Sequence record: MK327931.1
From: Escherichia phage vB_EcoM_G17
Length of the DNA: 64,000 nt
Strand: one strand, 5' to 3'
The position numbers and the translations under genes were made by a program. Shown in pieces: positions 1,689 to 31,455 of this stretch; position 1 is the first letter of the stretch; every line of letters starts with the position of its first letter. The notes beneath the pieces are model-generated. The model searched no databases. It saw nothing but the letters and a program-made list of their open reading frames with translations, and was not told where the DNA came from.

Positions 1689-2654
1689 TTAGAAATCTTC
1701 GTATTCGTACCCTTTTGCAAGTACTAGCTTCTTAAGCTTTTGCATAGCTTCACTGTACTTTCGATGTATTGATGAACGGGATTTAACATATTTTCCATTA
1801 TCATCAACAAAACCATTATCAGCAATCTCACGAAGCGTTTCAGGTTCATATTCACCTAGACCATGAACACGCTGGATAATCTCACGTTCTTTAGTACTCA
1901 ATTCGTTAGTCAGTTCATTGATAGCATAACGTAAAGGTGCACGAATACTATCAACATTGAGGTTAAAATCAGAAGCAGGTGAATGAATAATGTCACCTAG
2001 TGTACCATCGGTAACACCGTCTAATGGTGCATCCAGAGAAGTGTATTCGCTTTGAAATAACAAACAGTTATTAACATGCTGAATCTCAATCCCAGTACCC
2101 TCTGAGATTATTTCAGGAGTTGGGCGAACACCATGTTTACGCATATATTCCTGGCAGAATCTTTTTACTTTGATCTTATGAACACTCATATAACGTGGGA
2201 AGTGTACCATATAGTTAGCGTCAGAACTTTCGTTATAAACTGTCATGTAAATACTAGAAGAAGCATAGGTAATGAACTTCACATTCTTATTAAGATCAAA
2301 GGTTTTTAGTGCTCTCATGAACCCCTCAACACCATATGAAATCTTATCTTCAAATGGGATATAACAAGTACATTTACTTGCTACATCAATAATAAGTCCA
2401 TAATTGTAACGAACTAACAGTTCAGTGTTTTTCTTTACATTGATACCAGCTTGAATATCACGAATTAGATCTTCATTGGAAACATTTGGTGGTCGCTTAA
2501 GTGTAATATTATATTTGAAACTGCTTTGTACTTTACCTTCATTTTCATCTTTATCTTCAACGAAATCTAAGGCTTCTAGTGTGTTGACTTCTTCATTAGC
2601 AAAACATTCATCCAGAACTTCTTCGGCAATTGTATTTAAATCAAGCTTTTTCAC
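1689..2654 (-). CDS. sigma-70 family RNA polymerase sigma factor
   Basis: Region 2-like EDKISYGVEGFMRALKTFDLNKNVKFITYASSSIY and region 4-like EREIIQRVHGLGEYEPETLREIADNGF helix-turn-helix. Confidence 0.8.
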   Translation of the reverse strand: MKKLDLNTIAEEVLDECFANEEVNTLEALDFVEDKDENEGKVQSSFKYNITLKRPPNVSNEDLIRDIQAGINVKKNTELLVRYNYGLIIDVASKCTCYIPFEDKISYGVEGFMRALKTFDLNKNVKFITYASSSIYMTVYNESSDANYMVHFPRYMSVHKIKVKRFCQEYMRKHGVRPTPEIISEGTGIEIQHVNNCLLFQSEYTSLDAPLDGVTDGTLGDIIHSPASDFNLNVDSIRAPLRYAINELTNELSTKEREIIQRVHGLGEYEPETLREIADNGFVDDNGKYVKSRSSIHRKYSEAMQKLKKLVLAKGYEYEDF

Positions 2655-13923: not shown

Positions 13924-14013
<90 letters not shown>

Positions 14014-14025
14014 AGAAGTAAGATA

Positions 14026-14126
<101 letters not shown>

Positions 14127-14178
14127 GCCAAGAGTCGGCATAGGTGCAGCACTACAAAGTTCTTCAAGCTGCTTGGTA

Positions 14179-14210
<32 letters not shown>

Positions 14211-14211
14211 T

Positions 14212-14268
<57 letters not shown>

Positions 14269-14270
14269 TA

Positions 14271-14398
<128 letters not shown>

Positions 14399-14417
14399 GC
14401 ATACTCGAAGTACCTCT

Positions 14418-14455
<38 letters not shown>

Positions 14456-14456
14456 A

Positions 14457-14821
<365 letters not shown>

Positions 14822-14830
14822 TAATACCCG

Positions 14831-15232
14831 CTAGTAGTTTAAGTCTGCGGCGTTGAATACACCAAGTGAAGTCTTACCACGTAGTTTAGGTGAAAGGACA
14901 TACTTTGTCAATTTCTTTTTACCGTACCAGCGATTGAATTCGTCTTCAGTGACATATGGGTTCTGGAAATCGTATTCGCGTTTCTTATGCAGTTCTTTAG
15001 CACGTTCTGCAATCTTGGTTCGTTGGTCTTCTGGAATGTCGAATGTATTGTTACGTTCACACCATTCGTGCTCTAATGCACCCTGAAGAAACTGTTCGGT
15101 TTCTTTGACTAGAGTGATTTTAGTCAAGCCTTTTTCGATGTTCATATAATCATCGACGTATCCATTCCAAATAACAATCTCTGGATTGCCGTCAATTTCT
15201 TGAAGCATTTTGATCAAGTCATTCTTTTTCAT
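14831..15232 (-). CDS. hypothetical protein
   Basis: 133-aa ORF. Confidence 0.5.
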   Translation of the reverse strand: MKKNDLIKMLQEIDGNPEIVIWNGYVDDYMNIEKGLTKITLVKETEQFLQGALEHEWCERNNTFDIPEDQRTKIAERAKELHKKREYDFQNPYVTEDEFNRWYGKKKLTKYVLSPKLRGKTSLGVFNAADLNY

Positions 15233-15240
15233 TTAAATTC

Positions 15241-15498
<258 letters not shown>

Positions 15499-15519
15499 TT
15501 ATACCTCTCATTGTTTATG

Positions 15520-15591
<72 letters not shown>

Positions 15592-15595
15592 TAAT

Positions 15596-16203
<608 letters not shown>

Positions 16204-16254
16204 ATAAACCTCACTATACGTAACTTACACCATATACGTCTGATTGTGGAATTC

Positions 16255-16279
16255 ATTATATCAGTACTGAACTATTTAG

Positions 16280-16283
<4 letters not shown>
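16255..16283 (-). promoter_or_regulatory. sigma-70-type promoter copy B (TTGACT-N17-TATAAT)
   Basis: Consensus -10, near-consensus -35, conserved 17-nt spacer; upstream of gene 15820..16203. Confidence 0.6.
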
Positions 16284-16693
<410 letters not shown>

Positions 16694-16702
16694 CTTTTTT
16701 TT

Positions 16703-16864
<162 letters not shown>

Positions 16865-16868
<4 letters not shown>

Positions 16869-17029
16869 AATCGTACCAGTAGTTCAATTAAGTACATTTC
16901 ATATGCTGGATCGTTGATAAGTTTATCATACAGATGTGGCTCTGAAATGAATTCCCAATGATACTTTAGCCATCTACCGATACCCGAATATCTAAAATTA
17001 ATGTCATTCATCCATTCTTCATGTGTCAT
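16865..17029 (-). CDS. MTHEEWM-family small protein (54 aa)
   Basis: Manual translation MTHEEWMNDINFRYSGIGRWLKYHWEFISEPHLYDKLINDPAYEMYLIELLVRL; tandem with next copy. Confidence 0.5.
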
Positions 17030-17190
17030 AATCGTACCATTATTTCAATAAAGAACCACGGATACACTTCATGATTCATAAGTTTATCGTATTCTGCTGG
17101 GTCTGATATGATTTCCCAATGATACTTTAGCCAACTACCGATACCCGAATATCTAAAATTAATGTCATTCATCCATTCTTCATGCGTCAT
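17026..17190 (-). CDS. MTHEEWM-family small protein (54 aa)
   Basis: Manual translation MTHEEWMNDINFRYSGIGSWLKYHWEIISDPAEYDKLMNHEVYPWFFIEIMVRL; about 75 percent identical to previous copy. Confidence 0.5.
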   Translation of the reverse strand: MTHEEWMNDINFRYSGIGSWLKYHWEIISDPAEYDKLMNHEVYPWFFIEIMVRL

Positions 17191-17213
17191 GGTTTTTAAC
17201 CTTTAATTAAAAT

Positions 17214-17290
17214 TGGCCGAGGTAGAGGGACTTGAACCCCCAACCTAGAGATTAGAATTCTCTTGCACTATCCAATTGTGCTATACCCCG
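17214..17290 (-). tRNA. tRNA-Arg (anticodon UCU)
   Basis: Acceptor CGGGGTA/TACCTCG plus G-CCA, D-arm GCACAATTGGATAGTGC, anticodon stem AGAGA/TCTCT with loop AUUCUAA, T-arm GGGGG-TTCAAGT-CCCTC. Confidence 0.7.
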
Positions 17291-17294
17291 TATT

Positions 17295-17410
<116 letters not shown>

Positions 17411-17443
17411 ATGTTATGTCCCATTATATAATGAATTAATGAT

Positions 17444-17770
17444 TTATGCAAGTGCTTTAGATACACCGACACCAATAATTCCAGTGATATCGATATGGAT
17501 ATTGGCAAGTTGATTACTATCATATGGGTTTGTTTCTGTAATAACCAATGTTGTATCATTGACTAAAACCACAGTACCTTTTACACGATAACCATGTAGT
17601 AGTACTTGAACCTCATCTTCAGGTTTTAATGATTGAATAACTTCAAATAAAGTTGTTTCCATTTTTTGTATTCCTTGTTTAGTTTTGATTATTTGACTTT
17701 CTAAATGCCAGTTCGCATATAAACCAGGGTTTTCTGGTATCCAAAACATATGACCTGAAAAGATTTTCAT
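17444..17770 (-). CDS. hypothetical protein (start uncertain)
   Basis: 108-aa ORF; 5' end overlaps 17679..17879 so an internal Met is the likely start. Confidence 0.4.
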   Translation of the reverse strand: MKIFSGHMFWIPENPGLYANWHLESQIIKTKQGIQKMETTLFEVIQSLKPEDEVQVLLHGYRVKGTVVLVNDTTLVITETNPYDSNQLANIHIDITGIIGVGVSKALA

Positions 17771-17862
17771 CTCTTAATATATCATAATGTACCTGACGAA
17801 TGCCATTCCCAAAGCAGTCATGTTCTTTATGCTGTTTGGACATCCATTCTTCGTGTGTCATT

Positions 17863-17879
<17 letters not shown>
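17679..17879 (-). CDS. MTHEEWM-family small protein
   Basis: Contains MTHEEWMSKQ...WFICELAFRK aligning with other family members. Confidence 0.5.
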
Positions 17880-18198
<319 letters not shown>

Positions 18199-25533: not shown

Positions 25534-25913
25534 AGTTTTTTCCAGTCCAATGAATCGAAATCGATTTGCTCAGGATTATCAACAGCGACAACTCGTGCAT
25601 TATGAAGAGTTTCAAAGTAGCCGTTCCACGGTGTTCGTAATGGAACTGTCACATCGCCAACTTTAACCAAGAATGAATATTCTGGTGATATTGGGTCAAA
25701 CCACTCTTTTTGTTTAGCATTTTCAACGATAGTTTCGTGTTCTTTAGTATAGCAATTATCTTGCTTCATATAAAACACCCAATGCTCTTTTAGGCACTGT
25801 AAAGCAGCAACTGCTTCCTCTTTAGAAGACCATTGAATATCAATTGTATTAAGAACGTCATAACAATTTTCAGTGTCCCCTGTAGTATAATGTACTTCAA
25901 TGCTGTATTTCAT
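25530..25913 (-). CDS. hypothetical protein
   Basis: 127-aa ORF. Confidence 0.5.
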   Translation of the reverse strand: MKYSIEVHYTTGDTENCYDVLNTIDIQWSSKEEAVAALQCLKEHWVFYMKQDNCYTKEHETIVENAKQKEWFDPISPEYSFLVKVGDVTVPLRTPWNGYFETLHNARVVAVDNPEQIDFDSLDWKKL

Positions 25914-26368
25914 TAATCATCGCCTTTTAGTAATTTACAAATTTCAATCATATGATAATAACATGTATTCCAAAATTGTCCATTAGTACTTCCAACATCA
26001 TGCACAGTACTTTGCTGGAACACATATTCATCGTTGAACATCATTTTAATATCATCAATGTAAAATTCTGGTTTTGAATCATTATTGTATTCAATACTCG
26101 TTTCACCATCTGGATCAAGTGAAATTGATGATATGTCGTGAATTCCTCTCGGATTTGTTGGATAAATTCTCAACGTAAGAGGATAGAAGTCTGGATCGGT
26201 TTCATAGGTATATTCGATTATGTAATAACCATCACCAGTAATTGATTGATATTTAAATGTAGTTTCAATTGAATTTGAGATGTTATATCCCAGTTTCTTT
26301 ATCTCATGTAGATGTGATAATATTTTATGTAAAGATCCTAAAACATGAATCAAATTATCAATTTTCAT
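25913..26368 (-). CDS. EE-x-FFQ C-terminal-motif family paralog
   Basis: C-terminal FNDEYVFQQSTVHDVGS. Confidence 0.55.
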   Translation of the reverse strand: MKIDNLIHVLGSLHKILSHLHEIKKLGYNISNSIETTFKYQSITGDGYYIIEYTYETDPDFYPLTLRIYPTNPRGIHDISSISLDPDGETSIEYNNDSKPEFYIDDIKMMFNDEYVFQQSTVHDVGSTNGQFWNTCYYHMIEICKLLKGDD

Positions 26369-26907
26369 TTACGATCCTTTGAAAAGTTCAGTTTAAAAGT
26401 TTTACCAAATTCCATTGTAGCTTTACCCAGATTGTTAATATTTTCTTTCAACATTTCTTGCATCTTCCTAATACTTTCAATCCAGGCTTCTTCTTCGATA
26501 CGAAGAATTGGTCGCAATCGTTCCTGAATATCGTTAAAACGTGTATTGAGTTCAACCAATGATTCATATGTGAAATCTTTCATATCGATAATAGTACTTC
26601 TTTGAAAGAATTCTTCTTCAGACAAATTACTTAAAATGATTTTATCACGACCAATAGATAATGTCAATTCATCATCTTTATTTTTTTTAATTACAATACT
26701 AATAGGTGTTTTTAATGTAATACAAATATCATGATTATTAAATGTTTCAGTTTGGTTTGACATTCTGAATTGAAGTTTCCCAGATAAAGCATGTACTGGT
26801 GATGGTTTCTTTTTACCAGTAATAACATCTTCCCATGAATCGAGAATATTATTAATAATTTTAACATAAGGAATTGGCATATATGCACCTATGAAAAATC
26901 CACGCAA
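26365..26907 (-). CDS. EE-x-FFQ motif family paralog with C-terminal extension
   Basis: LSEEEFFQRSTIIDMKDFTYESL followed by about 50 extra residues. Confidence 0.55.
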   Translation of the reverse strand: MRGFFIGAYMPIPYVKIINNILDSWEDVITGKKKPSPVHALSGKLQFRMSNQTETFNNHDICITLKTPISIVIKKNKDDELTLSIGRDKIILSNLSEEEFFQRSTIIDMKDFTYESLVELNTRFNDIQERLRPILRIEEEAWIESIRKMQEMLKENINNLGKATMEFGKTFKLNFSKDRK

Positions 26908-26922
26908 TGCGTGGATTTGTAA

Positions 26923-27453
26923 TTATTCAAGTATAGTAATTTCAATTAAACGAATTTCGATAAACTCGTTTTCAGTTTCCCATGACGTGCCAAATTTCTT
27001 TTCAAGTTCAGATTTCACATCACTTTTAAATTTTCCCATAGTATTAGGAATAATTTGTTTGGTTAATTTGTCGTAACCACAATAAAACATAGGTTTCTCC
27101 CTTCGAGATATTAGCTGAACAAAATCTTTTGGATATGCAGGTATGTTATGCATCACTTCATGAATACACTCAGTACTTGAATCTTGTACTTTGTACATTA
27201 CATTAAGTTTACCTCTGAAATTTGCGGTCATATCAACAATAGTTCCTTTACCCGATTTAAGTAAAGTTCCATTCTTTGAATGAGAGCAATAAAATACCTC
27301 ATCACCAATATTAGGATAATACAAATTAAATTCTAATTCAGATTTTACAGCCAGCCGTTTGAAACTTTCTGTACGTTTTATATAAGTTTGGTATTTGTTT
27401 ATGTTCAAAAGAATATCTCTCTTAGTAAATGTGATATAACTGGCATAGTCCAT
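26923..27453 (-). CDS. hypothetical protein
   Basis: 176-aa ORF directly downstream of the methyltransferase. Confidence 0.5.
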   Translation of the reverse strand: MDYASYITFTKRDILLNINKYQTYIKRTESFKRLAVKSELEFNLYYPNIGDEVFYCSHSKNGTLLKSGKGTIVDMTANFRGKLNVMYKVQDSSTECIHEVMHNIPAYPKDFVQLISRREKPMFYCGYDKLTKQIIPNTMGKFKSDVKSELEKKFGTSWETENEFIEIRLIEITILE

Positions 27454-28265
27454 CCATTCCCAAGCATTTTGTATGCTTGTGTCTTACTAGACACTTTAAA
27501 GAAATCTTCAGGAACACCCTGTAATTTACAACATTCTACTACACTTAAGTGTCTATAGTCAATATTTCTTTTGCCATTCTCTAATAGATATTGACGACTG
27601 ATCACTGGGTCACGAAACACCAATTGTCGTCTGGATTTATTAAAGTACTGGTTACAATCACCACCTTTAAAATAGTTAGCATCTATACAGTACGAAGCGG
27701 TTCTGTCAGTGTACCAACCATCTTCAATAATATCTTGAAGTTTAGGTGCATTGGATAATGCAGGTGGTATAAAAAGCTTATCAGTACTGTACCAGTAATA
27801 TCTCTGCCTGAAGTGAGGCGTATAATGCTGGGAGTTTATCAGTACTGGCGTGATTCCTAAAATACTATTAATGTATTCTTTGAAATCTTCCTTCATTTTA
27901 ACATTTTCAAACAGAAATTTCAAGTTAGGATTGAGACTTTTGATATGATCAAAAATTTCAACCATTACTAAAAATAACTGCCCACGTATATCATTTAAAC
28001 CACCCTGTTTACCTGCAACTGACCAGGCTTGACATGGGAAACCACCCATTAATAAATCTATTTTATCCCACTCAATATCCCATTCTCTCCACTTAGTTAC
28101 ATCACCCAATTGGATAATATCAGGAAAGTTAGCTTGAGATTCAGCTATTGCGTACTTGTCAATTTCGGATGAATAATATTTTTCAACTGGGATACCAGCA
28201 TCTTGCAATGCCATATATCCCACACTCATTCCATTAAAAAGAGAAAGTACTCGGATAGGTTTCAT
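27405..28265 (-). CDS. DNA (cytosine-5)-methyltransferase
   Basis: C5-MTase motifs: LFNGMSVG (I), GGFPCQAWSVAGKQ (IV, PCQ), FLFENVKM (VI, ENV), RQRYYW (VIII), GNGWTMPVISHLL (X). Confidence 0.8.
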   Translation of the reverse strand: MKPIRVLSLFNGMSVGYMALQDAGIPVEKYYSSEIDKYAIAESQANFPDIIQLGDVTKWREWDIEWDKIDLLMGGFPCQAWSVAGKQGGLNDIRGQLFLVMVEIFDHIKSLNPNLKFLFENVKMKEDFKEYINSILGITPVLINSQHYTPHFRQRYYWYSTDKLFIPPALSNAPKLQDIIEDGWYTDRTASYCIDANYFKGGDCNQYFNKSRRQLVFRDPVISRQYLLENGKRNIDYRHLSVVECCKLQGVPEDFFKVSSKTQAYKMLGNGWTMPVISHLLREIFF

Positions 28266-28317
28266 ATAAAATCCTTTTTATATTGTTAAGGTACTATAAT
28301 ATATTATAGCATCTTAT

Positions 28318-28608
28318 TTAGAAATCTTCCAAACTTTTTTCATCACACCATCGTGATGTACAGATGATTGCAGATGCCAGAATTGAAGCACTTGCACGTC
28401 CTCCACCAAGTAAGTACTGGCTAATTACACCAATCATATTGAACACTTTATCATACTCGGTTAGTTGTTCAAAACCTTTCTTCCAATGCTGATATTCTTC
28501 TTCTGTGACATTAAACTCACCATCAAGTTCCTTTAAAATCTTTTTAAGCACAGCACTATGTTCACTCATCATCATCTCCATATCGTTCGTCATAAAAATC
28601 ATCATCAC
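28318..28608 (-). CDS. hypothetical protein
   Basis: 96-aa ORF. Confidence 0.45.
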   Translation of the reverse strand: MMMIFMTNDMEMMMSEHSAVLKKILKELDGEFNVTEEEYQHWKKGFEQLTEYDKVFNMIGVISQYLLGGGRASASILASAIICTSRWCDEKSLEDF

Positions 28609-28647
28609 GATCTAATGGTTCTTTTGGCTTTTCAGACATATATTTCC

Positions 28648-28908
28648 TCACATGGTAAAGGTATTATCACCATCCATATCTTCATCAGTTGCTTCAGCTA
28701 ATGTCTTGATTGTAAGTAATCCACGCTTCACGTACAACATGAAGACCTTTTCATAATTACCAAACATAATCTCAGGTGACATGTAATTCTCTGTTACAAT
28801 GACGATTGGACGGCCCTGTGAAAGCATACGAAACATAGTACGATATTTGTCAAATGTACGAAATTCATCCATGTTCATCATGTGGCGTTTACGAACTACT
28901 TTAGTCAT
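28648..28908 (-). CDS. hypothetical protein
   Basis: 86-aa ORF. Confidence 0.45.
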   Translation of the reverse strand: MTKVVRKRHMMNMDEFRTFDKYRTMFRMLSQGRPIVIVTENYMSPEIMFGNYEKVFMLYVKRGLLTIKTLAEATDEDMDGDNTFTM

Positions 28909-28922
28909 CTTATTACCTTTAG

Positions 28923-29363
28923 TTAATTGAACTCTACTTCTGGATAATGATTATAGAACATCTCACGAACTGCGTCAAGATGTTCTTGAAATTGTTTTAT
29001 ATCTTCTAATGATGGTGCATCAATAACAGTACTAAGTTGAAACAACGATTCTTCTGTGTTATATAGTGACATATCAAATGAGTTATTGTTGTCATCAGTT
29101 ATGATATTATCACAAATTTCGTAAGTGTCAATACAAACATCATCAAGTGTTGTATTATCATATACAGTGTATACGAATACAAAAATAAAAGAAGAATGTT
29201 CTTTACCATAACGCGGTGGGTCATATGTCACATAGCATTTGTGGTCAAATGTATCGAGTTCCATAGACACCACCCCAGCTTCACGATATTCATTAGTTTC
29301 ACTGGTAAGATCCGGTATTGATGTTATCGAAAGTAAGTGGAGAAATTTACTTGGATTTAGCAT
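28923..29363 (-). CDS. EE-x-FFQ C-terminal-motif family paralog
   Basis: YNTEESLFQLSTVIDAPSLEDI. Confidence 0.55.
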   Translation of the reverse strand: MLNPSKFLHLLSITSIPDLTSETNEYREAGVVSMELDTFDHKCYVTYDPPRYGKEHSSFIFVFVYTVYDNTTLDDVCIDTYEICDNIITDDNNNSFDMSLYNTEESLFQLSTVIDAPSLEDIKQFQEHLDAVREMFYNHYPEVEFN

Positions 29364-29818
29364 TTCACCACCATTGGATTTTGCGACTGTATATTAAAAA
29401 GGGATAATACAAAAGTACTCAATTTTTCGAAACAATCTACTAATACATTTAACTCATCATAACTAACACCAATTTCACGAATAAGCGATTGTTGAAAGAA
29501 TCCTTCTTCGGTTAACGTTAAACTACTAACCTCAGTTATGTTATAATAACTGTGGGATGTTGTGGTTGATATTAGTTGTATTGCAATCGTATCTGATGTT
29601 GTGTTGTACAGATATAAATATTTTGTTTTTCTTTCCAATGGATCTATACATGAAAGATCGATCATGTCATAGGTTTTTCCAATAAAAATATTACAATCAT
29701 CTGACAATTCACAACAAATGCGTATATGTTCTTTCGGGTCATGAACACGTTGTGTGTCAAATTCACATGACATTGCAATTTCAAAATGATTTTTTATTTC
29801 GTCAACATTCATCTGCAC
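29357..29818 (-). CDS. EE-x-FFQ C-terminal-motif family paralog
   Basis: LTEEGFFQQSLIREIGVSYDEL. Confidence 0.55.
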   Translation of the reverse strand: MQMNVDEIKNHFEIAMSCEFDTQRVHDPKEHIRICCELSDDCNIFIGKTYDMIDLSCIDPLERKTKYLYLYNTTSDTIAIQLISTTTSHSYYNITEVSSLTLTEEGFFQQSLIREIGVSYDELNVLVDCFEKLSTFVLSLFNIQSQNPMVVKC

Positions 29819-30186
29819 CCACCATTAATTCTTATATTTGTATAGTTTAATGCTTTTTTAATAATACCAATTTCTGTAATTCCTATTACATTTTTCTCAA
29901 TCAATGACAATTGGAATAGTTCCTCTTCGGAAATATCAATACTGTGGATTCTTGTACAATAATCGTTGAAGTCATATACATATCGTATTGTATAGTCGTT
30001 TATAGAAACTGATACAATTGCAATCCCATCATGGATGTAAGTTAGTTCATTTGAGTATCTATTAAAAATTAACCTATCTGGTGAACCTATTGGTAGTTGA
30101 AATGTATTTCTAGTATCTTGAACAATAACAAAATCATCATCTATATTTCTACTCAGAACACCCAAAATATCATATATAGTAGTCAT
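29809..30186 (-). CDS. EE-x-FFQ C-terminal-motif family paralog
   Basis: ISEEELFQLSLIEKNVIGITEI. Confidence 0.55.
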   Translation of the reverse strand: MTTIYDILGVLSRNIDDDFVIVQDTRNTFQLPIGSPDRLIFNRYSNELTYIHDGIAIVSVSINDYTIRYVYDFNDYCTRIHSIDISEEELFQLSLIEKNVIGITEIGIIKKALNYTNIRINGGCR

Positions 30187-30187
30187 G

Positions 30188-30592
30188 TTATTCTTTACCT
30201 TCAGCAGTTCTGATAATTTTCATAACTTCTCTGGATAGTGCGTATATTTTTTTATAGTACTCAAATGTAACTGAACCAAAATCATTAATAGTACTAGCCA
30301 TGAAGAACGATTCTTCTGTATATAGTTCATTTGACAAAGCAACCAGTTCTTGGTGAAATTTTGCGTCCTTCCAATAACGAAATTCAAAAACAAATTGTCC
30401 GTCATGACCGACTCTACAACATTCAGAACGATCACTGTCTACACAGCTAAACACAATATCCCTTTCAGAGTCGTACCAGATATTTCCAATATTTGTTTCA
30501 ATAACAGCATAATCAATTTTTTTAGAATTTGGAATTAAACCTTTTTTCACCAGCACTAAACTGGTATTATCAATATCTAGTAAACTTACCAT
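30188..30592 (-). CDS. EE-x-FFQ C-terminal-motif family paralog
   Basis: YTEESFFMASTINDFGSVTFEY. Confidence 0.55.
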   Translation of the reverse strand: MVSLLDIDNTSLVLVKKGLIPNSKKIDYAVIETNIGNIWYDSERDIVFSCVDSDRSECCRVGHDGQFVFEFRYWKDAKFHQELVALSNELYTEESFFMASTINDFGSVTFEYYKKIYALSREVMKIIRTAEGKE

Positions 30593-30593
30593 A

Positions 30594-31004
30594 TCAATTC
30601 CCCATTACTAAAGTGTTTTTAATCTCCAACAATTCACTATACATATTCTTCAATTGTAATATATCTTCAAAAGTAATACCACCAAGATCATCAACTAATG
30701 AACGTTGGAATAAAGATTCACTTGTTTGTAATGTATCTAAATCGGTGATTTTTAATAAAGAACTTGGATTAAGTGTTTCGACTAGTAGTATGTTTTTGTA
30801 TGGTACATATGTGATCTTGATGTTCTTTTTATAATTAATCTTATAAAATCGCATAATTGACGATTCATCACTTAGTTGGATAATTGGGTCGTCTTGATCA
30901 TTAGACCACCATACAGTACTAGTCATATGATTGACGTGGTGGTTCAATTCTGATATGTCCAAATCTAAAAAATATTTTAGTTCATTGTGTAAATCTAAAC
31001 TCAT
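30594..31004 (-). CDS. EE-x-FFQ C-terminal-motif family paralog
   Basis: QTSESLFQRSLVDDLGGITFEDI. Confidence 0.55.
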   Translation of the reverse strand: MSLDLHNELKYFLDLDISELNHHVNHMTSTVWWSNDQDDPIIQLSDESSIMRFYKINYKKNIKITYVPYKNILLVETLNPSSLLKITDLDTLQTSESLFQRSLVDDLGGITFEDILQLKNMYSELLEIKNTLVMGN

Positions 31005-31059
31005 AAATTTATCCTCAATGCAGCATCATCATGTATTGTAGGATAAACCCACAATAATG

Positions 31060-31455
31060 TCAAGATGTGAAATAATTATACCAGTAATATAGTTCTTTTA
31101 ATTCTTCAGTACTGAACAATACTTCTTCTATTGTAGATTGTTGAAAGTGATATTCATCATTTAGATACATAGAAATATTACTATATACTTTCCTATTGTA
31201 TTGACATAAAAAAGAAGTTTTTTGATTAATGTATTCCGTAAATGTTAATTTATCTAACTCAATATCGAATGATAATTTAATAATATGACTATTATCATTT
31301 ACATACATTAGTTTCTTTGAAAAATGATCAATTGTAATATATTCTTTATGAGAGAACTGAAATATATTATTAAATTTATTACCATTTGTGCTTCTAAATT
31401 TTTCAAGGTAATAAGAAAGTGGTTTAATTATTGAAGTTCCAATATTGTTCTTCAT
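31060..31455 (-). CDS. EE-x-FFQ C-terminal-motif family paralog
   Basis: LNDEYHFQQSTIEEVLFSTEEL. Confidence 0.55.
   Translation of the reverse strand: MKNNIGTSIIKPLSYYLEKFRSTNGNKFNNIFQFSHKEYITIDHFSKKLMYVNDNSHIIKLSFDIELDKLTFTEYINQKTSFLCQYNRKVYSNISMYLNDEYHFQQSTIEEVLFSTEELKELYYWYNYFTS

What the first reader, a model, noticed from the sequence alone, without database searches (positions are those of the whole stretch)
26923..28265. Orphan-looking C5-cytosine DNA methyltransferase
All key C5-MTase motifs are present (PCQ, ENV, QRY, GNG..P), but the short target-recognition region and the lack of a recognisable restriction endonuclease partner suggest an anti-restriction or epigenetic role. The downstream 176-aa ORF (26923..27453) is unassigned and could be a partner. 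A link to the enriched AGTACT-containing palindrome is speculative.
Basis: partly seen in the sequence, partly recalled or inferred. Interest (0 to 1): 0.45.

Follow-up and report, generated by a model that had tools for sequence, protein, structure and literature searches.

The report
Orphan cytosine methylase of jumbo phage
This is a real, intact DNA cytosine-5 methyltransferase of a 350-kb E. coli jumbo phage, with no restriction enzyme beside it; it is already annotated in GenBank, and its target sequence is still unknown.

Summary
The window is Escherichia phage Sharanji (Asteriusvirus; 121Q/PBECO4 group). ORF 27405..28265 (-) is gp251, which GenBank annotates as 'modification methylase HaeIII' and the Sharanji paper mentions.

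**The methylase.** It is an intact 286-aa C5-cytosine methyltransferase. All motifs are present, the model is confident (pLDDT 92.7), and dN/dS is about 0.05. Its closest solved relatives are the compact DNMT3A/B/C catalytic domains. The 'HaeIII' label is automatic name transfer; relatives are variously labelled HpaII, SPRI or DNMT2.

**Orphan status.** None of the ten neighbouring proteins scanned, five on each side, matches a nuclease or defence family.

**The downstream ORF.** It is really 161 aa: a TTG start at 27408 overlaps the methylase stop as TTGA. It lies beside or near the methylase in every relative where the upstream DNA could be read. It evolves fast and shows no nuclease signature. 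Its fold could not be modelled.

**The AGTACT link.** The enrichment is real: 918 copies against about 120-190 expected in a 99%-identical genome. It is shared by RaK2-like phages, which also lack GCGC entirely. Nothing ties it to this enzyme. Phages phi92 and ICP1 carry homologous methylases without the enrichment, and the cytosine of GTACT shows no excess of C-to-T change.

**Verdict.** An ordinary, already-known gene. The target motif needs an experiment.

The parts
28303..28332 (-). Sigma-70-like promoter candidate (TTGGAA, 18 nt, TG-TATAAT) 38 nt upstream of the methylase start codon.
   Evidence: 10 of 12 consensus matches, with an extended -10 TG. The region has no more promoter-like sites than shuffled sequence (14 against 15.5), so this is a consensus match only, not evidence of function.
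27405..28265 (-). C5-cytosine DNA methyltransferase, 286 aa (Sharanji gp251, WNN14532.1). Catalytic Cys78 is at 28034..28032, ENV at 27908..27900 and GNG at 27461..27453.
   Evidence: PF00145 E 4e-38; AF2 pLDDT 92.7; DNMT3A TM-score 0.80; dN/dS about 0.05.
26923..27408 (-). Conserved 161-aa protein of unknown function (annotated as 176 aa, 26923..27453; phrog_28599). The TTG start overlaps the methylase TGA as TTGA. It has an N-terminal helix, a beta-rich segment at residues 24-104, and a C-terminal alpha/beta part.
26896..26918 (-). Terminator-like hairpin (10-bp stem, 5 G-C pairs, 3-nt loop) followed by a T run, starting 5 nt after the stop of the 161-aa ORF.
   Evidence: hairpin found. (RNA fold -14.7 kcal/mol, z -3.3). 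(sequence AAATCCACGCATTGCGTGGATTTTTCAT on the minus strand).

Best explanation
This is an orphan phage DNA cytosine-5 methyltransferase.

Shown:
- The protein has the complete SAM-dependent C5-methyltransferase machinery and a confident DNMT3-like compact fold.
- The machinery comprises the SAM pocket (motifs I-III), catalytic Cys78 in the PCQ motif, Glu120 in ENV, Arg153/Arg155 in motif VIII, and motifs IX and X.
- It is under strong purifying selection.
- It has no restriction enzyme next to it.

Inferred:
- It is transcribed with the 161-aa ORF as a two-gene unit, from a host-type promoter to a hairpin terminator.
- It flips out and methylates cytosines in one short sequence motif on phage DNA. 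This shields those sites from host restriction enzymes.
- The rest of the genome protects itself by having lost restriction sites altogether.
- The motif is unknown and cannot be read from the sequence.
- The 161-aa partner is most likely a fast-evolving accessory or counter-defence protein, not a nuclease.
For: Family and motifs:
- PF00145, TIGR00675 and phrog_116 all match.
- All catalytic motifs are invariant across 38 homologues.

Structure:
- AF2 model with pLDDT 92.7 and pTM 0.90.
- Foldseek top hits are DNMT3A/3B/3C catalytic domains: TM 0.74-0.80, 24-28% identity, E 1e-24 to 1e-20.
- phmmer against the PDB puts DNMT3C/3B (full length) at E 2e-23. M.HhaI aligns over the N-terminal half only (residues 4-124) and M.HaeIII over residues 6-204, both at about 1e-17.

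Selection:
- dN/dS is 0.05-0.11 against three relatives whose synonymous sites are 42-69% changed.

Orphan status:
- The ten neighbouring proteins have no Pfam hit at E <= 0.01 apart from one sub-threshold MutS_IV match, and no PADLOC hit.
- Only 2 weak hits in 72,556 plasmids against 252 phage records, so the family is essentially phage-borne.

Genome context:
- The genome relies heavily on site avoidance. In a 99%-identical genome GCGC occurs 0 times in 350 kb and 23 palindromic hexamers are absent. A protective methylase covering a site that remains would fit this.
- Promoter-like site and terminator hairpin bracket the two genes.
- The authors of the phAPEC6 and Sharanji papers propose the same role.
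Against: - No methylation data exist for any phage of this group (literature searches).
- phi92-like phages carry a 51%-identical homologue, yet were reported as exceptionally susceptible to the restriction systems tested (PMC8594841). Such enzymes therefore give at best narrow protection.
- Sharanji was propagated on E. coli K-12 MG1655. That strain is McrBC-positive and McrBC cuts purine-5mC DNA (my own knowledge, not tested here). Dense methylation in a purine-C context would be costly unless it is countered.
- A test for C-to-T hotspots between diverged genomes found no motif with an excess of transitions. This result is weak, because synonymous sites are saturated.
Confidence: 0.6

Rival explanations
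1. The methylase writes an epigenetic self-mark on the over-represented AGTACT/CAGTACTG palindrome, and the 161-aa protein reads or regulates that mark.
For: - AGTACT is the most over-represented hexamer. In the window there are 130 copies against 16-29 expected. In 350 kb of a 99%-identical genome there are 918 against 119-187, and CAGTACTG occurs 204 times against 3-11.
- The excess survives synonymous-codon shuffling (109 against 31.5 +/- 4.7) and appears in all three reading frames.
- Sites are conserved between diverged genomes: the C of GTACT shows transitions at 3.4% against 11.7% for all C.
- RaK2, GAP32 and metagenomic relatives all keep both the methylase and the enrichment.
Against: - The co-occurrence cannot be separated from shared ancestry.
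- phi92 (methylase 51% identical) has 0 AGTACT in 50 kb, and ICP1 (45% identical) has 6 against 15 expected.
- The transition/transversion ratio at GTAC (2.77) and GTACT (2.39) is not above the overall 2.65.
- A-5mC-T would be a McrBC substrate (my own knowledge), yet the phage grows on MG1655.
- M.ScaI is, to my knowledge, an N4-cytosine enzyme, so there is no precedent for C5 methylation of this site.
Confidence: 0.07
2. The methylase and the 161-aa ORF form a cryptic restriction-modification or toxin-antitoxin-like pair, with the small protein as the nuclease.
For: - The gene pair is tight and conserved: the TTGA overlap here, gaps of 1-15 nt in relatives, and linkage in L005, L006, L008, L009 and L011.
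- The pair shares one promoter-to-terminator unit.
- Some type II nucleases are about this small (PvuII is about 157 aa, from my own knowledge).
Against: - No Pfam, PADLOC, NCBIfam or PDB match to any nuclease.
- Only D36, E84, D95 and D113 are invariant acidic residues. There is no conserved lysine or histidine that would make a PD-(D/E)xK or HNH site.
- The small protein diverges much faster than the methylase: 71%, 43% and 35% identity where the methylase is 95%, 87% and 80%.
- RaK2 keeps the methylase without it. GAP32 keeps only the beta-rich module in a different protein.
Confidence: 0.05
3. Host-directed methylation. The enzyme targets a motif that the phage has purged from its own genome (for example GCGC). 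It therefore marks host DNA only, for shut-off or for destruction by methyl-dependent nucleases.
For: - GCGC is absent from 350 kb (0 against 159-293 expected) and from the RaK2, GAP32 and metagenomic segments examined.
- The methylase appears to be expressed early from a host-type promoter.
Against: - Total avoidance is explained more simply by restriction pressure or by a phage nuclease.
- M.HhaI (GCGC) aligns only over the N-terminal catalytic half, not over the target-recognition region.
- No methyl-dependent nuclease is recognisable nearby.
Confidence: 0.05
4. First step of a hypermodification pathway: 5mC is oxidised by a TET-like dioxygenase and then decorated, as in the phage C5-methyltransferase/TET clusters.
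For: Such phage pathways exist and use short-motif (GpC) C5-methyltransferases (PMC8256090; bioRxiv 2023.12.21.572611).
Against: - No TET/JBP, glycosyltransferase or other tailoring enzyme among the ten neighbouring proteins scanned.
- None is annotated in the 49 kb of the record inspected.
Confidence: 0.03
5. An RNA (tRNA) cytosine methyltransferase like DNMT2, acting on the phage's many tRNAs.
For: - One relative is labelled DNMT2 by an annotator.
- The window carries a tRNA cluster.
- DNMT2 chains are detectable hits (E 4e-10 to 1e-6).
Against: - DNMT2 scores far below DNMT3 (2e-23) and M.HhaI/M.HaeIII (about 1e-17), and aligns only over the N-terminal half.
- The annotator labels are inconsistent (HaeIII, HpaII, SPRI, DNMT2), so none can be trusted.
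Confidence: 0.03

Closest known systems
Mammalian DNMT3A/3B/3C catalytic domain
   Same: - Best match by both sequence and fold: E 2e-23, TM about 0.80, 24-28% identity.
- Same size (about 285 aa).
- Same motif I variant (LSLF-x-G-x-[S/A]).
- A comparably short target-recognition loop. Lys200 aligns with the position of DNMT3A Arg836 / DNMT3B Lys777.
   Different: - No PWWP or ADD regulatory domains and no DNMT3L-type partner.
- Prokaryotic-virus context.
- CpG specificity and tetramer formation are untested. It is a structural cousin, not a family member.
Prototype bacterial type II C5-methyltransferases M.HhaI (GCGC) and M.HaeIII (GGCC)
   Same: - Same ten-motif architecture and chemistry.
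- The N-terminal half aligns at about 1e-17.
- The motif IX-X segment (SS-K-T-Q-A-Y-K-M-L-G-N-G) follows the bacterial pattern.
   Different: - No cognate endonuclease.
- The M.HhaI target-recognition region does not align.
- The 'HaeIII' gene name in GenBank is automatic transfer. GGCC is itself depleted in the genome (117 against 265 expected from dinucleotide content), which would be unexpected if GGCC were protected.
Uncharacterised orphan C5-methyltransferases of other lytic phages: phi92 gp043, Vibrio phage ICP1, RaK2 ORF194, GAP32_390
   Same: - True homologues over the full length: 45-76% identity, with the same conserved CIDANY-KGG...RRQ target-recognition segment.
- All lie among small early-type genes with no endonuclease.
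   Different: - phi92 and ICP1 carry a 30-50-residue insertion in the variable region.
- They lack the 161-aa neighbour and the AGTACT/GCGC genome signature.
- None has a known specificity.
Phage and viral short-motif orphan C5-methyltransferases: M.CviPI (GpC), M.SssI (CpG), and the TET-associated phage methyltransferases (GpC[C/T])
   Same: Virus- or mobile-element-borne enzymes with no nuclease partner. They show that very short recognition motifs occur in such compact enzymes (PMC8256090).
   Different: - No TET or glycosyltransferase neighbours here.

Membership tests
C5-cytosine DNA methyltransferase (Pfam PF00145 / TIGR00675) | Profile match above the curated cutoff. | tested here: met
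   PF00145 scores 132 bits against a cutoff of 22. TIGR00675 scores 120 bits against a cutoff of 100.65.
C5-cytosine DNA methyltransferase (Pfam PF00145 / TIGR00675) | Catalytic Pro-Cys (motif IV), Glu-Asn-Val (motif VI), Arg-x-Arg (motif VIII) and Gly-Asn-Gly (motif X), in canonical order. | tested here: met
   P77-C78, E120-N121-V122, R153/R155 and G269-N270-G271 are all invariant in 38 homologues.
C5-cytosine DNA methyltransferase (Pfam PF00145 / TIGR00675) | Rossmann-like methyltransferase fold with a small target-recognition domain. | tested here: met
   AF2 pLDDT 92.7. TM 0.74-0.80 to DNMT3 catalytic domains.
C5-cytosine DNA methyltransferase (Pfam PF00145 / TIGR00675) | SAM-dependent transfer of a methyl group to C5 of cytosine in DNA. 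| not testable with these tools
   This needs an enzyme assay or methylome sequencing. No such data were found in the literature.
Type II restriction-modification system | A cognate restriction endonuclease gene next to the methylase. | tested here: not met
   Ten neighbouring proteins scanned. Pfam gives no hit at E <= 0.01 apart from one sub-threshold MutS_IV match, and PADLOC gives none. The 161-aa ORF also has no PDB sequence match, and the fold search on its low-confidence model found nothing.
Dcm (EcoKDcm, CCWGG) subfamily NF007772 | Profile score above the cutoff. | tested here: not met
   21.4 bits against a cutoff of 710.
M.HaeIII-type (GGCC) methylase, as named in GenBank | Target-recognition domain homologous to that of M.HaeIII, and GGCC specificity. 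| tested here: inconclusive
   M.HaeIII aligns over residues 6-204 at 1.8e-17, weaker than DNMT3. Relatives carry conflicting automatic names: HpaII, SPRI, DNMT2. GGCC is depleted in the genome. Specificity is untestable here.
Eukaryotic DNMT3 family | Catalytic domain joined to PWWP and ADD chromatin-reading domains, with CpG specificity. | tested here: not met
   The protein is the 286-aa catalytic domain alone. CpG specificity was not tested.
DNMT2 / tRNA C38 methyltransferase | Best similarity to DNMT2 over the full length. | tested here: not met
   DNMT2 chains score E 4e-10 to 1e-6 over the N-terminal half only, against 2e-23 for DNMT3.
Phage C5-methyltransferase/TET hypermodification cluster | An adjacent TET/JBP dioxygenase and tailoring enzymes. 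| tested here: not met
   No such family among the ten neighbouring proteins scanned. None is annotated in 49 kb of the record.

The most novel reading that the evidence does not exclude

- The mark would sit on the selectively maintained CAGTACTG/AGTACT palindrome, which has about 900 copies per genome.
- It would let RaK2-like jumbo phages tell their own DNA from host DNA, rather than simply blocking one host restriction enzyme.
- The evidence does not exclude this, because the enrichment and the methylase ortholog co-occur in every RaK2-like phage examined.
- Three results speak against it: the phi92/ICP1 counter-examples, the normal transition/transversion ratio at GTAC, and the McrBC argument.
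Probability: 0.07. Interest if true: 0.65.

Novelty: already known. Interest (0 to 1): 0.2.

Why it matters
The gene itself adds little. Orphan methylases are common in phages, and this one is already annotated and cited as a presumed anti-restriction factor.

What would matter is its target motif. This phage lineage shows extreme sequence engineering: no GCGC at all, 23 palindromic hexamers missing, and one palindrome enriched five- to eight-fold and conserved. Knowing which sites the enzyme methylates would show how avoidance, methylation and that unexplained palindrome fit together.

The enzyme is also a minimal, DNMT3-like catalytic domain. If its motif turns out to be short, it could be of practical use.

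Tried and rejected
1. **Inferring the target from mutation hotspots.**
   - I aligned 296 kb of phage ECO103 4-12-1 with TH47 (85% identity), and the window with ECO103 (98.8% identity). I then tabulated C/T differences by sequence context.
   - The top contexts (TGAC, GACG, CTCA and others) are synonymous third-codon positions.
   - No palindromic 4-mer has a convincing excess of transitions over transversions. CTAG, at 6.2, rests on 11 transversions.
   - Rejected as uninformative. The one solid by-product is that GTACT sites are conserved.
2. **Fold of the 161-aa protein.**
   - AF2 with only 5 sequences gave pLDDT 48.6. Foldseek on that model gave nothing below E 0.07 and TM at most 0.26.
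   - Profile searches of the PDB and Pfam gave only noise.
3. **Looking for restriction-modification relatives on plasmids.** Only 2 weak hits, so specificity could not be borrowed from a known system.
4. **Using gene names as a guide to specificity.** Rejected, because the automatic labels conflict: HaeIII, HpaII, SPRI, DNMT2.
5. **Using Salmonella phage SD-1_S14 as a natural methylase knockout.** There the gene is split into 60-aa and 163-aa ORFs. That 310-kb record has 677 mostly short features and may simply be error-rich, so I did not rely on it.
6. **Literature searches** for methylation data on Asteriusvirus, for the CAGTACTG motif and for GCGC avoidance in RaK2 found nothing relevant.
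Full report
**Origin of the window.** Window positions 26365-28908 are 100% identical to Escherichia phage Sharanji (OR545507.1, 350,079 bp, genus Asteriusvirus). They are 99-99.9% identical to 121Q, PBECO4, phAPEC6, slurp01 and others. Window coordinate 1 corresponds to record position 79778.

The finding's larger ORF is Sharanji gp251 (WNN14532.1), annotated 'haeIIIM, modification methylase HaeIII'. In 121Q it is gp91, 'DNA-cytosine-methyltransferase'. The Sharanji paper lists it among possible genome-protection genes, and the phAPEC6 paper notes a C5-cytosine methyltransferase 'suggesting protective DNA methylation'. The gene is therefore already known as an annotation. No paper I could find reports methylation data or a target motif.

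**Check of the observation.** ORF 27405..28265 on the minus strand encodes 286 aa.
- It matches Pfam PF00145 (E 4e-38), TIGR00675 (120 bits, cutoff 100.65), phrog_116 (E 1e-60) and PADLOC type II methyltransferase profiles.
- The canonical motifs are present in order:
  - motif I, V6-LSLFNGMSVG-16
  - motif II, S33-E34
  - motif IV, G74-G-F-P77-C78-Q79
  - motif VI, E120-N-V122
  - motif VIII, R153-Q-R155
  - motif IX, R238...E244...Q249-G-V-P252
  - motif X, G269-N-G-W-T-M-P275
- All of these are invariant in an alignment of 38 homologues of 49-87% identity.
- About 78 residues separate motifs VIII and IX. That is short for a bacterial enzyme and close to DNMT3.
- An AlphaFold2 model built on that alignment is confident (pLDDT 92.7, pTM 0.90).
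- Its best matches among solved structures are DNMT3A, 3B and 3C catalytic domains (TM 0.74-0.80, 24-28% identity, E down to 2e-24).
- By sequence, DNMT3B and 3C also come first and align over the full length (E 2e-23). M.HhaI aligns over residues 4-124 only and M.HaeIII over residues 6-204, both at about 1e-17. DNMT2 is far weaker.
- The gene is under strong purifying selection: dN/dS is 0.05-0.11 against relatives whose synonymous sites are 42-69% changed.

**Orphan status.** Five proteins on each side were scanned.
- Pfam gives no hit at E <= 0.01 apart from one sub-threshold MutS_IV match. PADLOC gives no hit at all.
- Eight of the surrounding genes are tandem paralogues of one unknown family sharing a (T/S)EE-x-F-FQ-x-S-(T/L)-I motif. 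The methylase cassette sits inside that array.
- The family is essentially phage-borne: 252 phage records but only 2 weak plasmid hits.
- Homologues occur in RaK2 (64%), GAP32 (75%), Erwinia phage Kaldavass (76%), phi92-like phages (51%), Vibrio phage ICP1 (45%), and many Bacteroides, Vibrio and Cellulophaga phages.
- Automatic names given to these proteins (HaeIII, HpaII, SPRI, DNMT2) contradict each other. They carry no information about specificity.

**The downstream ORF.** It is annotated as 176 aa with a 49-nt overlap into the methylase. Its real start is almost certainly the TTG at 27408..27406, which overlaps the methylase stop codon as TTGA and follows AAGAGAG at a normal Shine-Dalgarno distance.

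Evidence for the shorter start:
- The orthologue P0124 is 161 aa and begins at that position.
- In L006 the equivalent codon is ATG, and the upstream frame hits a stop.
- In L005 the ORF starts at an ATG 12 nt after the methylase stop, behind AGAGG.
- Distant tblastn hits begin at residue 16-20.

Distribution and linkage:
- The protein family is tiny: 4 clusters in 5.8 billion proteins, and 11 hits (one of them a spurious repeat) in a full HMMER scan of 1.84 billion representatives.
- In every relative where the upstream DNA could be read, it lies directly after the methylase (L005, L006, L007, L008, L009) or two genes downstream of it (L011).
- One 2-kb contig shows a DUF559-like gene upstream instead.
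- GAP32 has, in the same position, a 189-aa protein that shares only the central beta-rich module (hhalign probability 94%, E 1e-7).
- RaK2 has no detectable counterpart.

Evolution and fold:
- The protein changes fast. It is 71%, 43% and 35% identical where the methylase is 95%, 87% and 80% identical, and its dN/dS is 0.2-0.4.
- It has no Pfam, NCBIfam, PADLOC or PDB sequence match.
- Its few invariant residues (D36, V38, G47, G55, E84, D95, D113, G140) form no known nuclease motif.
- Its AF2 model is unreliable (pLDDT 48.6), so the fold search was uninformative.
- The question 'is it a nuclease?' therefore stays formally open, but nothing supports it.

Transcription unit: a promoter-like site (28332..28303) and a terminator-like hairpin (26896..26918; -14.7 kcal/mol, z -3.3) bracket the two genes. 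The promoter is a consensus match only.

**The AGTACT palindrome.** The enrichment is real and large.
- In the window, AGTACT occurs 130 times against 16-29 expected. It is the top hexamer, followed by its own extensions CAGTAC and GTACTG.
- Sites are dispersed, about one per 500 bp. Their only flanking preference is C at -1 and G at +6.
- They occur in all three reading frames and between genes. They exceed synonymous-codon shuffles by about 16 standard deviations (109 against 31.5 +/- 4.7).
- In 350 kb of the 99%-identical phage ECO103 4-12-1, AGTACT occurs 918 times (expected 119-187) and CAGTACTG 204 times (expected 3-11). GCGC occurs 0 times (expected 159-293), and 23 palindromic hexamers are absent.
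- Both signatures recur in RaK2, GAP32 and three metagenomic relatives.

Nothing links this to the methylase.
- phi92 and ICP1, which carry full-length homologues, have 0 and 6 AGTACT in 50 kb and normal GCGC counts.
- Between ECO103 and TH47, the cytosine of GTACT is about 3.5 times less polymorphic than the average cytosine, and its transition/transversion ratio is ordinary. That shows selection keeping the sites, not 5mC-driven decay.
- A-5mC-T would also be a substrate for McrBC (my own knowledge), which is present in the MG1655 host on which Sharanji is grown.

The co-occurrence within RaK2-like phages cannot be separated from common descent.

**Mechanism.**

Shown: a complete, conserved, well-folded C5-methyltransferase with no nuclease partner, in a genome that otherwise defends itself by purging restriction sites.

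Inferred:
- Early co-expression with the 161-aa protein.
- Methylation of one short motif on replicating phage DNA.
- Protection of that motif from host restriction enzymes.

The target cannot be deduced here. The attempt to read it from C-to-T hotspots failed, because codon-position effects dominate at 85% identity and there are too few differences at 99%. BASEL data show that phi92-like phages with a homologous enzyme remain very sensitive to the restriction systems tested. Any protection is therefore narrow.

**Verdict.**
- The partner ORF is a conserved but non-nuclease-looking neighbour with a mis-annotated start.
- The AGTACT link is unsupported.
- The gene is already annotated and discussed, so its novelty is nil and its interest is low.
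- The more intriguing material lies beside the finding: the absolute absence of GCGC, the conserved CAGTACTG excess across RaK2-like phages, and an intein that interrupts the orthologous methylase exactly before its catalytic cysteine in some relatives.

Noticed in passing
whole window; loci L014-L020 (OR844650.1, 350 kb): GCGC is completely absent: 0 in the 64-kb window and 0 in 350 kb of a 99%-identical genome, against 159-293 expected. Genome-wide, 23 palindromic hexamers are missing (CCATGG, GGTACC, CTGCAG, GCATGC, GGATCC and others). GATC, CCGG and GGCC are about 2-fold depleted. RaK2, GAP32 and the metagenomic relatives also have 0 GCGC; phi92 and ICP1 do not.
   Followed up: partly
whole window (130 sites, for example 27172, 27644, 27783, 27841 and 28246 inside the two ORFs); L014-L020: AGTACT, extended to CAGTACTG, is the most over-represented word.
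- It is 5-8-fold over expectation, and the 8-mer 18-60-fold.
- It occurs in all reading frames and exceeds codon shuffles.
- It is conserved between genomes that are 85% identical.
- It is shared by RaK2, GAP32 and metagenomic relatives.
- Its density is 2-3 times higher at 300-330 kb of OR844650.1.
- No function is known, and no paper on it was found.
   Followed up: partly
L002 1541-3421 (-) (phage UE-S1); TH47 MT446416.1 about 175.4-177.5 kb; L011 51-1946: In some relatives the orthologous methylase carries a roughly 340-aa intein (Hint plus LAGLIDADG homing endonuclease). It is inserted as GGFP | CF(P/T)(A/E)GT...VVHN | CQ(A/S)WS, so the catalytic cysteine of the PCQ motif is the +1 extein residue. 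The window's allele is the intein-free homing site.
   Followed up: partly
window 25913-26880 and 28923-31455 (-): Eight tandem genes of 125-171 aa flank the methylase cassette. They are paralogues (13-29% identity) sharing an invariant E..F..S within a (T/S)EE-x-F-FQ-x-S-(T/L)-I-x-D motif. They have no Pfam or PADLOC match.
   Followed up: partly
window 27409-27453 (-): The first 15 codons of the annotated 176-aa ORF (also in PHROG 28599) are probably not translated. The real start is TTG 27408, giving 161 aa. Many GenBank relatives carry the same long call.
   Followed up: yes
L010 3-1049 (-): In one 2-kb metagenomic contig, the homologue of the 161-aa protein is preceded by a divergent 349-aa gene instead of a methylase. 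That gene has a borderline DUF559 (Vsr-like endonuclease fold) match of 20.2 bits against a cutoff of 20.6.
   Followed up: no
L023 (Salmonella phage SD-1_S14, OR699183.1): Here the methylase gene is split into 60-aa and 163-aa ORFs with about 180 nt missing, and the downstream ORF is also shortened. This is either a natural loss or an error-rich assembly (310 kb, 677 features).
   Followed up: no
window 1689-2654 (-) and 13934-18176 (-): The GenBank record annotates an RpoD-like sigma factor gene. It also annotates a cluster of eight tRNA genes (Thr, Asn, Met, Ser, Arg, Ser, Gly and a Ser(act)) interleaved with very small ORFs.
   Followed up: no
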